From: Escherichia coli
Lineage (GTDB): Bacteria > Pseudomonadota > Gammaproteobacteria > Enterobacterales > Enterobacteriaceae
Strand: one strand, 5' to 3'
Assembly (NCBI RefSeq): GCF_030013205.1
Contig: NZ_CP122648.1
Length of the DNA: 64,000 bases
Of the stretch, positions 60,001-64,000 are shown in pieces (position 1 is the stretch's first letter; every line of letters starts with the position of its first letter). Made by a program: the position numbers.

Positions 60001-63000
60001 TGCGGCGCTGTGATTTTGCTTTTTTCTTCGTCAATTTGTGCCTGCAATGACTGAATCGCATTACGCGCACTCACAACTTGCGGGGCGTCCTCACGCAGAT
60101 ACGTCAGCAAGTTCCGCAGGTCCGCTTCCATCTGGATCTTCTGGCCCATCAGCGTATTCACTAACGTGCTCGCCGCCTGTGCCTGTGCCTGTGGATCCAG
60201 AACGTTGTTGTTGTCTTGATAAGAGAGCAATTCCGCTTTGCTGGCGTCCAGACGCTGGCGTGCCTTTTCCATCTCCGTTTCTGCAAAGGCAAGCTGGTCA
60301 CGCGCGATGCGATGTGACATCTCATTGATAAAGCGCTCTGACTCTTTCAGCACGGTCTGGTTAAACTTAAGCGCAAACTCCGGGCTAAAGCCCTGCGTCT
60401 GAATATTCAGTAATCCGGTTTTATCGTCATACGAGACGTTGATACGGTCCTTGTAGTACTTCAGGAAGCCTTCTGCAGTTTCATCCTTGCTAAGATGATT
60501 AAGAAAATCGAGCCCGCTGTGGCTAAACGCTTCACGAAAATTTAGTTGCTTATCCAGCGCCGCCAGCATATCCGGCGAGTTGATGTACTCTTTCAGATAC
60601 AACGCATCTTCTGCGGAACTGGGGTTAGAGGCACCCAGAAGCAGACCAAAATTCAGGCTGCCGCTGTTTAAATCATCCGAGCGTTTAATGGCGACTTTCG
60701 ACTCGCTCATATAGCGAGGCTGGCTGAAGATAGCCAGATAGATCAGCAGCACCGCCATCGGTGTCAGAATGATGATTTTCGCCAGGTGTTTTTGGATATC
60801 TGCCAGTGAGATGGCAGACAGACGAGCACGCATCCAGGATACGGCAGACTTCACTTTTATCAACATGTAACGATTATCAAAGTTTCAGTGGGGCGCAAAC
60901 TCAATGAGAGACTAACCTCTCGAACCCCGTTGCTTAATTAGTCGAAAATGCGCACAAGGCCAGTGACTTTATTTGCCTTGTTGGTCACCAATAATGTTGA
61001 GACGCGGTGCTTTTGCATTTTTTCTTCCGCTTCAATGATCATGGTGTCTTCCGGTAGCGTCAGCGGTTCACGTGTCATCATCTGCGCAGCCGTGGCGGAT
61101 GTCAGAGAATCCTCTTTTTCCATAAAGCGACGCAGGTCACCGTCGGTGATAATGCCCGCTAGCCCACCTTCTGCGTCTTCTACCATCACCATTCCCTGGC
61201 ATCCGCTGGTGATACGTTGAATCACGGTTTTAAATGACGCATCCAGCTGTACCGCAGGAACATCATGCTGCATGACATCAGCAACGCGGGTCAGCAGGCG
61301 ACGACCTAATGAACCGCCCGGGTGATAGCGCGCAAAATCATTCGGCATAAATTTGCGTTGGTGGATCATGGCAATCGCCAGCGCATCGCCGATCGCCATC
61401 GTCAGCGTGGTAGACGTTGTTGGTGCAAGATTATTCGGGCAGGTTTCATTCGCCATGTGGAGTTCCAGCACGGCATCAGCATTTTTCGCCAGCGTGGAAT
61501 TTCCATTATTGGTAATGGCGATAATTCGGTTGCCGAAATTTTTCAGTGAAGGAACTAGCTTGAGGATTTCATCCGTTTCACCGCTGGCAGAAATAAGGAT
61601 CAGAAGATCGTAAGGCGTAATCATGCCCAGATCGCCATGGAAAGCTTCTGCAGGATGAATAAAGAAACTAGGCGTACCCGTAGAGGCCAGCGTCGCTGAC
61701 ATTTTACGACCGACATGCCCTGATTTACCCATTCCTGAAAGAATAACGTGCCCTTTACAGTTCATTATCAAATTAAGGACACGCTGGTACTGCCCGGAAT
61801 CCAGTTGTTTAGACAAGTTTTGTAATGCTGCGCCTTGTTCTGCCAGAGTCTGGCGAACAGAGGTAATTAGATATGGATCGATAGTACTGCTCTGGTCATC
61901 AGGTAAATGTCTTTCAGACATATCAGCTCCTTTGCACGGAAATAATGCCACAGTCACAACAAACCCGAACCCACTATAATTTATTTATGCTAAATCAATG
62001 GGTTGTAACAAAATTTTTAATGAATATAAAACCATGGTCAGTCCATGCTTATATGCAGGACTTATCACCTTCTTATTAAGTCGCAATGTCTCATGGAGGT
62101 GCGAAGATGCTGCAATATTACAGGCGAGAAGGGGAACCAAATTTTGCCCACCTATTTAACACACCCCTACATTATGAACAAGGAATTTAGGATTTTTATC
62201 ATTTATTAAAATGTTTCCTACTTGACTATTAAGACCAAAAACAATTTATCAATTGATTATTTCCTTGTAAAAAAAGAACGTATGACTATGTTATTAATAA
62301 ATAAAACACGCAAATAATGGTGATGTTGTTTTGTGATTAACTATTTAAGTGCGGCATAATAAACAGGTTGACAATTTCTATGTAAAGAAGAGGAAAATAA
62401 TAAAATTTTAGCGGTGACTATTGAATGATATGATAGTTGTGGTGTTGATTATTTCTGGTAATGAATGCGGAATTAAATCTGGCCGGATTGTATTTTTGCT
62501 ATATCTATTTTTCAGGAGATTATTATTAAATAGAAAAATAACAATGGTGATTATCTCCGGTTGAGCTGGAGTCACGTATGCCAGCGAGTGCTTTCTTCCG
62601 GGCCTTCCTTCACTTCAGAGAAAGAGCCTATGGAAAAGAGGCAATCATCAGGCTCTTTTTGAGTCATATGCGCCGATAATCAACTGTCTTGAACGTAAAA
62701 ATTATGGAGCAACATGATGCTACGATTCATTTCACTCTTCGTTTTTTCTGAGCATTGCGTTCAGGATGGTCAGCAATTTACGCATACAGTCAACCAGCGC
62801 CACTTTTTTGGTTTTTCCGGCTGCTGGCAGATGCATGTAAAACGCCTTTATCACCGGATTAAACCAGGTTACCACAAGCGCTGCCATGTGCAGGGCTGCT
62901 CTTGCCTCCGTACGCGCACTGGCGTCGTTCGGCCAGCAGATATGTGTGGGATAACAGGGATGTTATGTGAACTGAACTGTGTTTTGTTAACGGGGGATGT

Positions 63001-64000
63001 TTATTGATGATTCGGGAGTGTTTAAGACCTGATGGCGTTATGCTCCCAAGTTTATTTTATATAAAGATCCAAAAGCAAAAACCCGCCTTGTGGGCGGGTT
63101 CTTAAGAATTAGTGGTGCCGGACTCGGAATCGAAAATTTCTTTTATCATATTGATATTAATATAATTTATTTGGTTTGATTAAAAATGCACCCTCAATTA
63201 TACCCGCAGTCCCTTTTGATATCGAAAGGGAATCACACTCGGGATCAGGCTGAGAGCACAGAAGGAAAGTACCTGGCTATTATATCGTTAATTCTGTCAA
63301 TCAGTTCCAGCCTTTTGAAAGTGATGTGTGCAGATCCCTTCTTAAAGTATTTAATGATGAACATCTCGTCTTCATAGCGCTCTTTACCCTGAACGGACTG
63401 GATGTGACCATCCAGACGAATAGTGATGTTTTCCCGGTTGTCGGGGATCGGTTTGCCGCTGAACAGATGTAGCATTCTTTCCAGGTCGACGAGTCGGTCA
63501 GTCTGTTGCCCGGTGATAAGATGAAACCCCCACCGGTCCCACCTCACTAGGTTGTTGACGATAATTTTACTGCCAAATTTGCAGGGGCAATTGGTTTTGT
63601 AATTCCAGTTCAGTCCCCTGAAGACGTTGATCACCCCTCGCTCAAACACCTCATCCTTATTCTGGTGTAGTTGTTCAAATGTGCTCAGAATGTTCGCTTC
63701 ACTGATTTCCGGAAAATTATCGTGCTCCAGTGACCGGTACCATGTATCACGGGCCTGTGCATCCATTAAGGAAAGCATCCCTGAACGTTGCATCAGGTCA
63801 CGCCAGATTTCGCGATCGAGATTGCGTGTGATGGCTTTCATTGCGGTTTCCGGTTTCTCCATCAGCCAGCAGCCGCAGCGAAAATCCTGTTTCATGGCCC
63901 AGTCCGGGGCGGCTTTACCGCCAATACTTTCTGTCATTGCTGATATTTCAGCCAGTTGCCGGATAAGTGTGTCGATTTGCAGCAGTGTACTCTTTCGTAC

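What the first reader, a model, noticed from the sequence alone, without database searches (positions are those of the whole stretch)
62732..63134. Island boundary: 22-nt near-copy of the tRNA-Phe 3' end next to an IS110-family transposase remnant
TGGTGCCGGACTCGGAATCGAA (63113-63134) matches the reverse complement of the tRNA-Phe 3' terminus with a single-base deletion, while the rest of the tRNA is missing. This is the signature of an att direct repeat left by integration at pheV. In K-12 gspM (yghD) lies next to pheV, so the kps cluster here occupies the pheV island position and the repeat marks a junction between island modules. The adjacent truncated IS110-type transposase and AT-rich junk fit a decayed junction.
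Basis: partly seen in the sequence, partly recalled or inferred. Interest (0 to 1): 0.5.

Follow-up and report, generated by a model that had tools for sequence, protein, structure and literature searches.

The report
Known pheV island end-repeat beside kps
The 22-base tRNA-Phe fragment is real: it is the already catalogued right-hand attachment site (attR) of a small integrase-borne island inserted into the pheV tRNA gene, sitting next to the capsule (kps) gene cluster, so the finding is correct but ordinary.

Summary
Confirmed and already published. Window 63113-63134 is the reverse complement of pheV positions 54-76 (T-loop to CCA) minus one base. It continues leftwards into 45-48 nt identical to the native K-12 pheV 3' flank with its terminator (63065-63134, 70/71, E 4e-31).

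In the near-identical genome K_EC180 the intact pheV and a P4-like integrase lie 11.2 kb to the right. The fragment is therefore the attR of an 11,211-bp GI-pheV.

All four combinations exist in complete genomes: kps with island, kps alone, island alone, and neither. They share two base-precise breakpoints:
- 63067|63068, the end of the kps module.
- 63134|63135, the end of the island.

The kps module (41494-63067) is thus a separate unit lying outside the island, with no second pheV repeat. The IS110 remnant (about 62681-62901) belongs to the kps module and is also present in island-free strains. It is not junction decay.

Nhu et al. 2024 list this exact attR (TTCGATTCCGAGTCCGG-CACCA), and Arredondo-Alonso et al. 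2023 describe the same kps/PAI/pheV layout.

One side issue stays open: where the 1-nt deletion came from. It also occurs at pheU attRs, and in about 15 island-free genomes as a 75-nt pheV.

The parts
40957..41493 (+). gspM/yghD, the last core gene before the kps module. In K-12 it sits about 150 bp from pheV.
   Evidence: ORF list, K-12 annotation, and the alignment of the yghD ends.
41494..63067 (.). Group 2 capsule (kps) module of 21.6 kb: kpsMT, a region 2 bracketed by two IS1 copies, kpsSCUDEF, the kpsF upstream region, the IS110 remnant and a 166-bp tail. It replaces the roughly 100-bp yghD-pheV spacer of K-12.
   Evidence: PGAP annotation of the near-identical K_EC180, breakpoints from the four-way alignment, absence of the K-12 spacer from the window, and GC content of 41% against 56% for gsp.
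62681..62901 (-). 3'-terminal remnant of an IS110-family element, encoding only the last ~60 aa of the transposase. PGAP places the partial CDS at 62732-62914. The IS terminus faces kpsF and the truncated side faces pheV.
   Evidence: NF033542, E 1.4e-8, model 282-342/343; about 86% DNA identity to a full copy; 78% aa identity, E 5e-29. The same remnant is present in island-free kps+ genomes.
62902..63067 (.). 166 bp of unassigned non-coding sequence forming the pheV-proximal end of the kps module.
   Evidence: It is conserved with the kps module in CUVET19-1993, Ecol_316 and SF-173 and absent from K-12 and DLI.5a.
63068..63112 (-). Native chromosomal 3' flank of pheV, including its intrinsic terminator (stem 63104..63076, then a T-run). 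This is the attB-derived side of attR.
   Evidence: It is identical to K-12 immediately downstream of pheV. The terminator scan finds it.
63113..63134 (-). Displaced 3' fragment of pheV, which is the attR core. It covers tRNA positions 54-76 (T-loop, 3' T-stem, 3' acceptor strand, ACCA) with one G/C of the GGG/CCC run missing.
   Evidence: It is identical to the published attR TTCGATTCCGAGTCCGG-CACCA.
63135..63244 (.). AT-rich (31% GC) right arm of the island. It contains blocks conserved among diverged island ends. It also carries a motif, caATTATACCCGCA at 63195-63208 (related gcACCCTC at 63188-63195), that recurs two to three times between int and pheV at the other end. I infer these are integrase arm-type binding sites.
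   Evidence: Shared 10-mers against 0.8 shared 8-mers expected by chance, conservation across variants, and GC content. A binding function is inferred, not shown.
63245..64000 (-). DUF4942 gene, the last gene of the GI-pheV yee-type module. It runs past the window end, to 64087 by the K_EC180 annotation.
   Evidence: Pfam PF13708, E 2.5e-66, and PGAP annotation.

Best explanation
Window 63068-63134 is the right attachment site (attR) of a P4-like-integrase genomic island, GI-pheV. In this strain the island is 11.2 kb and inserted into the pheV tRNA-Phe gene.

Integration by a tyrosine recombinase split pheV. The island carries its own copy of the tRNA 3' end, so a complete pheV was rebuilt next to the integrase, about 11 kb beyond the window's right edge. 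The original 3' end (T-loop to CCA, now lacking one base) was pushed to the far end of the island together with the native pheV terminator.

The group 2 capsule cluster (kps) is a separate, older or independent module. It lies between that terminator and gspM, outside the island, and it brings the IS110 remnant with it.

Shown here: the sequence identities, the breakpoints, the position of pheV and int, the empty-site genomes, and the independent presence or absence of the two modules. Inferred: that the integrase catalysed the event, that the conserved motifs in the island arm are its binding sites, and that the retained terminator now shields kps region 1 from transcription reading out of the island.
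For: - The fragment plus native flank matches K-12 pheV and its 3' flank at 70/71, E 4e-31 (sequences).
- K_EC180 has 2 differences from the window over 22 kb. Its intact tRNA-Phe is on the same strand, 11,211 bp from the attR start, with a 420-aa tyrosine integrase adjacent and a CP4-like gene set between them: DUF4942, DUF957, cbtA, yeeU, yeeT, Gp2.
- Four genome states share identical breakpoints (alignment A1): kps+/island+ (the window), kps+/island- (CUVET19-1993, intact pheV directly after the IS110 remnant and terminator), kps-/island+ (DLI.5a) and kps-/island- (K-12).
- Among 5,426 complete E. coli genomes, the kps-end/terminator junction occurs in 1,557, attR with this island end in 1,376, and both in 639.
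- Nhu et al. 2024, Table 1, list the identical attR with the same one-base deletion for APEC O1, S88, 536, H10407, 55989, REL606 and others. [quoted passage not shown]
- Arredondo-Alonso et al. 2023 describe the type II secretion genes, K1-kps, then either a PAI with a truncated pheV and 22-bp repeats, or an intact pheV.
Against: - Nothing contradicts the assignment.
- pheV and the integrase lie outside the 64-kb window. They are read from a near-identical genome, not from the window itself.
- The integrase scores below NCBIfam's curated cut-off for PRK09692 (248 bits against 434).
- The attR is imperfect, with a 1-nt deletion. No excision data exist for this strain, so its present mobility is unknown.
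Confidence: 0.96

Rival explanations
1. The repeat is the att site of the kps cluster itself: kps is the island that integrated into pheV, and the fragment is its boundary.
For: kps lies where pheV islands lie, directly between pheV and gspM. It has a lower GC content than the core, 41% against 56%.
Against: - kps+ genomes without the integrase island have an intact pheV and no displaced fragment.
- kps- genomes with the island keep the identical fragment.
- No second pheV fragment exists anywhere in the window.
- The kps boundary is 45 nt beyond the tRNA end, after the terminator, not inside the tRNA.
Confidence: 0.02
2. The match is a chance match, or the decayed stump of a second tRNA-Phe gene unrelated to any integration event.
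For: Only 22 nt of tRNA remain, and they carry a deletion.
Against: - The chance expectation is about 1e-7.
- The match extends 45-48 nt into the native pheV flank.
- In island-free genomes this very site is the single, complete pheV.
- The truncation point is the same base in hundreds of genomes and coincides with the island end.
Confidence: 0.01
3. The junction was created by IS110-mediated or homologous rearrangement, and the IS110 remnant marks the mechanism.
For: An IS110-family remnant lies 212 bp from the repeat.
Against: - The remnant sits at the same place in island-free kps+ genomes.
- It is separated from the repeat by 166 bp of kps-module sequence plus the native terminator.
- Only its last ~220 bp survive, with no catalytic domain.
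- The island/tRNA breakpoint is the one expected for tyrosine-integrase insertion.
Confidence: 0.01

Closest known systems
GI-pheV attR (Nhu et al., PLoS Genet 2024, PMC11537424)
   Same: It is the same locus and the same 23-bp imperfect direct repeat with the same one-nucleotide deletion (TTCGATTCCGAGTCCGG-CACCA). It also shares the intP4-type integrase next to pheV, the modular content including a yee module, and an island end defined at attR or at the breakpoint before kps.
   Different: Nothing differs in kind. This island is small, 11.2 kb against their range of 9.7-110 kb, and carries no classical virulence operon. Their mean size for attR-bearing islands is 75 kb.
PAI-V / PAI V536 downstream of kpsF in K1 and K15 ExPEC (Arredondo-Alonso et al., Nat Commun 2023, PMC10272209; Hochhut et al. 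2006 as cited in PMC7545054)
   Same: The layout is the same: type II secretion genes, kps, truncated pheV copy, island, P4-like intB, pheV. Both have 22-bp direct repeats, and both have a documented alternative state with an intact pheV and no island. I saw the same layout in CC95 strains SF-088, SF-166, SF-468 and SF-173.
   Different: Those islands are about 50 kb and carry pap, ireA and similar genes. Their right-end arm sequences are diverged homologues of the one here.
K-12 CP4-type cryptic prophages (CP4-44, CP4-57, CP4-6) and satellite phage P4 integration at tRNA genes (from established knowledge; Nhu et al. also make the CP4-44 link)
   Same: Both have a P4-like tyrosine integrase beside a tRNA or tmRNA gene, a yeeT/yeeU/cbtA plus DUF4942 module at the far end, and a displaced 3' tRNA fragment as attR.
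   Different: The target genes differ, and those are K-12 elements. No P4 phage functions are present here.
Islander principle for tRNA-gene islands (Hudson, Lau and Williams 2015, PMC4383910)
   Same: The regenerated target gene and its displaced 3' fragment, in the same orientation, mark the island ends, with an integrase inside.
   Different: None. That paper states the general rule, and this case follows it.

Membership tests
tRNA-gene-integrated genomic island (GI-pheV, P4-like integrase) | A complete target tRNA gene at one end, in the same orientation as the fragment | tested here: met
   tRNA-Phe lies at L001 32249-32324 on the minus strand, the same strand as the fragment and 11.1 kb away. 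It lies outside the window, in a genome with 2 differences over 22 kb.
tRNA-gene-integrated genomic island (GI-pheV, P4-like integrase) | A tyrosine integrase gene adjacent to the regenerated tRNA | tested here: met
   A 420-aa CDS lies 197 bp from pheV and is annotated as a tyrosine-type recombinase. It matches NCBIfam PRK09692 at E 1.3e-73, but at 248 bits it is below the curated 434-bit cut-off.
tRNA-gene-integrated genomic island (GI-pheV, P4-like integrase) | A displaced 3' tRNA fragment as a direct repeat at the far end, joined to the native chromosomal flank | tested here: met
   63113-63134 equals pheV positions 54-76 minus 1 nt. 63068-63112 equals the K-12 pheV 3' flank.
tRNA-gene-integrated genomic island (GI-pheV, P4-like integrase) | Related genomes with an unoccupied site and the same breakpoints | tested here: met
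   The empty-site genomes are CUVET19-1993, SF-173 and K-12. The occupied ones are the window, DLI.5a and SF-088.
tRNA-gene-integrated genomic island (GI-pheV, P4-like integrase) | Integrase-dependent excision to a circular form with attP | not testable with these tools
   This needs PCR or sequencing of attP and attB products. Published reports of excision concern related islands only.
IS110-family insertion sequence | A complete transposase with the N-terminal catalytic domain | tested here: not met
   Only model positions 282-342 of 343 are matched, and Pfam gives no hit. This is a remnant, not an element.
IS110-family insertion sequence | Sequence homology to the family's transposase C-terminus and 3' end | tested here: met
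   78% aa identity to residues 253-312 of a 322-aa transposase, E 5e-29. DNA homology runs 62681-62901 and includes about 50 nt past the stop codon.
tRNA gene | A complete cloverleaf recognised by tRNA finders | tested here: not met
   ARAGORN finds no genes in the window, and Rfam gives no tRNA match in 61900-64000. Only 22 of 76 nt are present.
Group 2 capsule (kps) locus | kpsFEDUCS and kpsMT flanking a serotype-specific region 2 | tested here: met
   PGAP names for the near-identical K_EC180 stretch are KpsF/GutQ, KpsE, the export protein, kdsB (kpsU), the two capsule biosynthesis proteins and the ABC permease/ATPase pair. This rests on annotation only and was not examined further.

The most novel reading that the evidence does not exclude
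The one-base deletion in attR may not be random decay. It recurs at both Phe-tRNA loci (pheV and pheU) and with several diverged island ends. About 15 island-free genomes carry a full-length 75-nt pheV with exactly this deletion.

Two readings remain open:
(a) The deletion travels in the island's attP, and strand exchange occurs in the last 7 nt (GGCACCA).
(b) The deletion is chromosomal, and excision 5' of it leaves a pheV with a damaged acceptor stem. The island would then hold the only good copy of the tRNA 3' end, a mild retention or re-acquisition pressure.
Probability: 0.3. Interest if true: 0.3.

Novelty: already known. Interest (0 to 1): 0.1.

Why it matters
It matters little beyond correct annotation.

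- It fixes base-precise boundaries for two mobile modules in this window: kps at 41494-63067, and GI-pheV from 63113 rightwards.
- It shows that the capsule cluster is not part of the integrase island, so loss or gain of the island need not affect the capsule.
- The layout and the repeat sequence are already in the literature for many E. coli lineages.
- The only thread with some residual value is the origin and consequence of the recurrent one-base deletion in attR, including the rare island-free genomes whose pheV carries it.

Tried and rejected
- Second pheV fragment. I searched for one that would bound kps at the gspM side, using the 25-mer with up to 3 mismatches, the 15-mer with up to 2 mismatches, and blastn-short of the whole K-12 yqgA-yghD interval. 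Only 63065-63134 was found. The idea that kps is the pheV-integrated island was therefore rejected.
- Pfam on the IS110 remnant, on a longer 75-aa frame, and on the antisense 97-aa ORF at 62714-63007 gave nothing. The remnant was confirmed through NCBIfam and a full-length homologue instead. Comparison with ISEc20 from the same island was weak, at 32% over 38 aa, so ISEc20 is not its source.
- Rfam at a permissive threshold gave only two sub-threshold hits over the terminator: P9 at 24 bits against a gathering score of 43, and rnk_pseudo. I treated both as chance.
- Williams 2002, on integrase sublocation classes, is not held in the library. I used only the one-line summary in the Islander paper.
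- I could not decide where strand exchange occurs from natural variants. Evidence points both ways, as set out in the full report.
- The CC95 island-free strain SF-173 was expected to discriminate between the models. It carries a private substitution and an undeleted CCC, which neither model predicts cleanly.
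Full report
**Observation**

The string TGGTGCCGGACTCGGAATCGAA is at window 63113-63134. The intact pheV, read in the same orientation, begins TGGTGCCCGGACTCGGAATCGAACCAAGG. The window copy is therefore tRNA positions 54-76: the T-loop, the 3' strand of the T-stem, the 3' strand of the acceptor stem, and ACCA. One base of the CCC/GGG run is missing.

ARAGORN finds no tRNA gene anywhere in the window. Rfam gives no tRNA hit in 61900-64000. Chance cannot account for the match:
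- About 1e-7 hits are expected for the 16 distinct one-deletion variants.
- The exact 15-mer occurs once, against 0.08 expected.

**The match is longer than reported**

A sensitive blastn of the K-12 yqgA-pheV-yghD interval against the window gives one significant hit. It covers 63065-63134 at 70 of 71 with one gap, E 3.8e-31.

The 45-48 nt to the left of the fragment are identical to the sequence immediately downstream of pheV in K-12. They include a hairpin plus T-run terminator on the minus strand, with its stem at 63104..63076. The fragment is therefore still attached to the original chromosomal 3' flank of pheV. That is what the distal junction of a tRNA-integrated element should look like; the Islander paper states this principle.

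**Where the rest of pheV is**

The last 22 kb of the window differ by one mismatch and one 1-nt indel from E. coli K_EC180. In that genome, reading rightwards from the fragment, the order is:
- DUF4942, DUF957, a DUF5983 remnant, cbtA, the yeeU-family antitoxin and yeeT
- a Gp2-family gene and a zinc-ribbon gene
- ISEc20, an Ail/Lom gene and a frameshifted sulfatase
- a 420-aa tyrosine integrase
- a complete tRNA-Phe on the same strand as the fragment, followed by yqgA and speC

From the start of attR to the 5' base of pheV is 11,211 bp. This is a small GI-pheV of the CP4/P4-like kind.

**Empty sites and independence of the two modules**

A search of 5,426 complete E. coli genomes with the junction sorted the hits into clean classes. 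I fetched one genome of each class and aligned them.

| Genome | kps | Island | Arrangement |
|---|---|---|---|
| CUVET19-1993 | + | - | kpsF, the IS110 remnant, the same 166-bp tail, the terminator, then an intact 76-nt pheV and yqgA |
| DLI.5a | - | + | yghD, the K-12-type 100-bp spacer, the terminator, the same deleted fragment, the same island end with DUF4942 |
| K-12 | - | - | neither module |
| Window | + | + | both modules |

The two breakpoints are the same base in every case:
- 63067|63068 is the end of the kps module.
- 63134|63135 is the end of the island.

Counts at 80% coverage or more:
- 1,557 genomes have the kps-end/terminator junction.
- 1,376 have a Phe-tRNA fragment joined to this type of island end.
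- 639 have the full arrangement of the window.

No other piece of pheV exists in the window. kps is therefore not bounded by att repeats and lies outside the island. It replaces the roughly 100-bp yghD-pheV spacer of K-12, which is absent from the window.

**The IS110 remnant**

- PGAP calls window 62732-62914 (minus strand) a partial IS110-family transposase lacking its N-terminus.
- NCBIfam NF033542 matches only model positions 282-342 of 343, E 1.4e-8. Pfam finds nothing.
- A full-length 322-aa relative aligns at 78% identity over its residues 253-312.
- DNA homology runs from about 62681, some 50 nt past the stop codon and presumably the IS terminus, to about 62901.

The remnant is present at the same place in island-free kps+ genomes. 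It is a fixed component of the kps module, not debris from the island junction.

The AT-rich sequence to its left, 61958-62680 at 34% GC, is the region upstream of kpsF. From general knowledge of kps region 1 regulation it holds the region 1 promoter. I did not test that here.

**Mechanism**

The anatomy fits the standard tyrosine-integrase pathway. The island's attP carries a copy of the tRNA 3' end. Recombination with pheV rebuilds a complete gene next to int and leaves the displaced 3' end at the far side.

Two points are inferred rather than shown.

- First, the 110-bp island arm at 63135-63244 (31% GC) is conserved in blocks among diverged island ends. It shares the motif ATTATACCCGCA (63197-63208) with two to three copies lying between int and pheV at the other end. 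Shared 10-mers were found where 0.8 shared 8-mers are expected. These are plausible arm-type integrase sites.
- Second, the retained pheV terminator now stands between the island's leftward-reading yee/DUF4942 genes and the leftward-reading kps region 1. It probably insulates the capsule promoter.

**Comparison with the literature**

Nhu et al. 2024 (PMC11537424) tabulate GI-pheV in 41 complete genomes. They give TTCGATTCCGAGTCCGG-CACCA as a 23-bp imperfect attR with a one-nucleotide deletion for APEC O1, S88, ED1a, H10407, 12009, 55989, 536, REL606 and others. [quoted passage not shown]

Arredondo-Alonso et al. 2023 (PMC10272209) describe the type II secretion genes upstream of kps. Downstream of kpsF they find either a PAI with a truncated pheV, a P4-like intB and 22-bp direct repeats, or an intact pheV with no PAI. 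I reproduced their two states in CC95 strains SF-088, SF-166 and SF-468 (island) and SF-173 (no island).

The finding is therefore correct and already known.

**An unresolved side issue: the origin of the one-base deletion**

Facts gathered:
- The deleted attR occurs at pheV with at least four diverged island right ends.
- It also occurs at pheU next to cadC, joined there to the K-12-type pheU flank. All five spread-sampled full-length junctions with that flank, other than the one exact match, span 90 rather than 91 nt, i.e. carry the deletion.
- An undeleted CCC attR with the same island end exists but is rare: 12 of 1,028 genomes at 99% identity or more.
- About 15 genomes have no island but carry a 75-nt pheV with exactly this deletion. 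Examples are EC2 (kps-) and M9682-C1 and E1654 (kps+).

The two possible sources make different predictions.

| | Deletion carried in attP | Deletion chromosomal |
|---|---|---|
| Site of strand exchange | 3' of the deletion, within GGCACCA | T-loop or T/acceptor junction, the sublocations summarised |
| Explains | the presence at two loci | the 75-nt pheV genes, as excision products |
| Leaves unexplained | the 75-nt pheV genes, which would need another deletion route | the presence at pheU, which would need an independent identical mutation |

SF-173, an island-free CC95 strain, has CCC plus a private C-to-A change, so it does not discriminate. I could not settle this. An excision assay with sequencing of attB and attP would.

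**Verdict**

- The repeat belongs to the integrase island, not to kps.
- kps sits outside the island, beyond the native pheV terminator.
- The IS110 remnant is part of the kps module.

Novelty: already known. Interest: low.

Noticed in passing
L011 3022-3096 (EC2) and L012 3022-3096 (M9682-C1); the equivalent site in the window is 63113 rightwards: About 15 of 5,426 complete E. coli genomes have no pheV island but carry a 75-nt pheV with exactly the attR deletion (GGGCACCA to GGCACCA) in the acceptor stem. It is still annotated as tRNA-Phe. These look like footprints of island loss by recombination 5' of the deletion.
   Followed up: partly
L006 3001-3075 (E14) and L007 3001-3076 (CE20), next to cadC: The same deleted attR and the same island right end occur at the second Phe-tRNA locus, pheU, joined to the K-12-type pheU flank. 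Both deleted and rare undeleted forms exist at both loci.
   Followed up: partly
L008 692-1127 (K-12 pheU region) compared with L001 32157-32330: The sequence just 3' of pheU in K-12 is nearly identical to the integrase-side end of GI-pheV, including its terminator, and is followed by the integrase pseudogene yjdQ. The 'native' pheU flank is therefore itself an old island left end.
   Followed up: partly
L010 (NZ_LR890315.1, whole 29,040-bp record): A circular record labelled Klebsiella oxytoca MSB1_10D 'plasmid 4' holds an E. coli-type kps cluster, the IS110 remnant, the pheV attR junction (99.3% identical to window 62560-62960) and a yee/DUF932 island module, starting with IS5. It is either contamination or misassembly, or an IS-mediated circle.
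   Followed up: no
window 44381-45144 and 52570-53333: Two IS1 copies bracket kps region 2 (glycosyltransferases, a beta-Kdo transferase and a 1,043-aa hypothetical protein). PGAP annotates both as frameshifted in K_EC180. The serotype-specific region therefore looks like an IS1-flanked cassette.
   Followed up: no
L014 3989-4093 (SF-173, CC95, island-free): Its pheV has a private C-to-A change in the 3' T-stem (GGACTAGG in place of GGACTCGG). The change is in neither the attL nor the attR of its island-bearing CC95 relatives. It could be a real polymorphism or a sequencing error.
   Followed up: no
window 63188-63208, and L001 32100-32130: The motif (A/T)TATACCC(G/A)CA appears in the island's right arm and two to three times between int and pheV. 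These are candidate integrase arm-type sites.
   Followed up: partly
L005 4214-4236 (Ecol_316): A different attR variant, TGGTGCCCGGAATCGGAATGAAA, is joined to an unrelated island end carrying AbiEii and DUF6088 genes. It is the reverse complement of the published TTTCATTCCGATTCCGGGCACCA repeat that Nhu et al. list for intP4.1 islands (their 19-bp imperfect repeat). Its mismatches all fall in the tRNA-5' half of the repeat.
   Followed up: no
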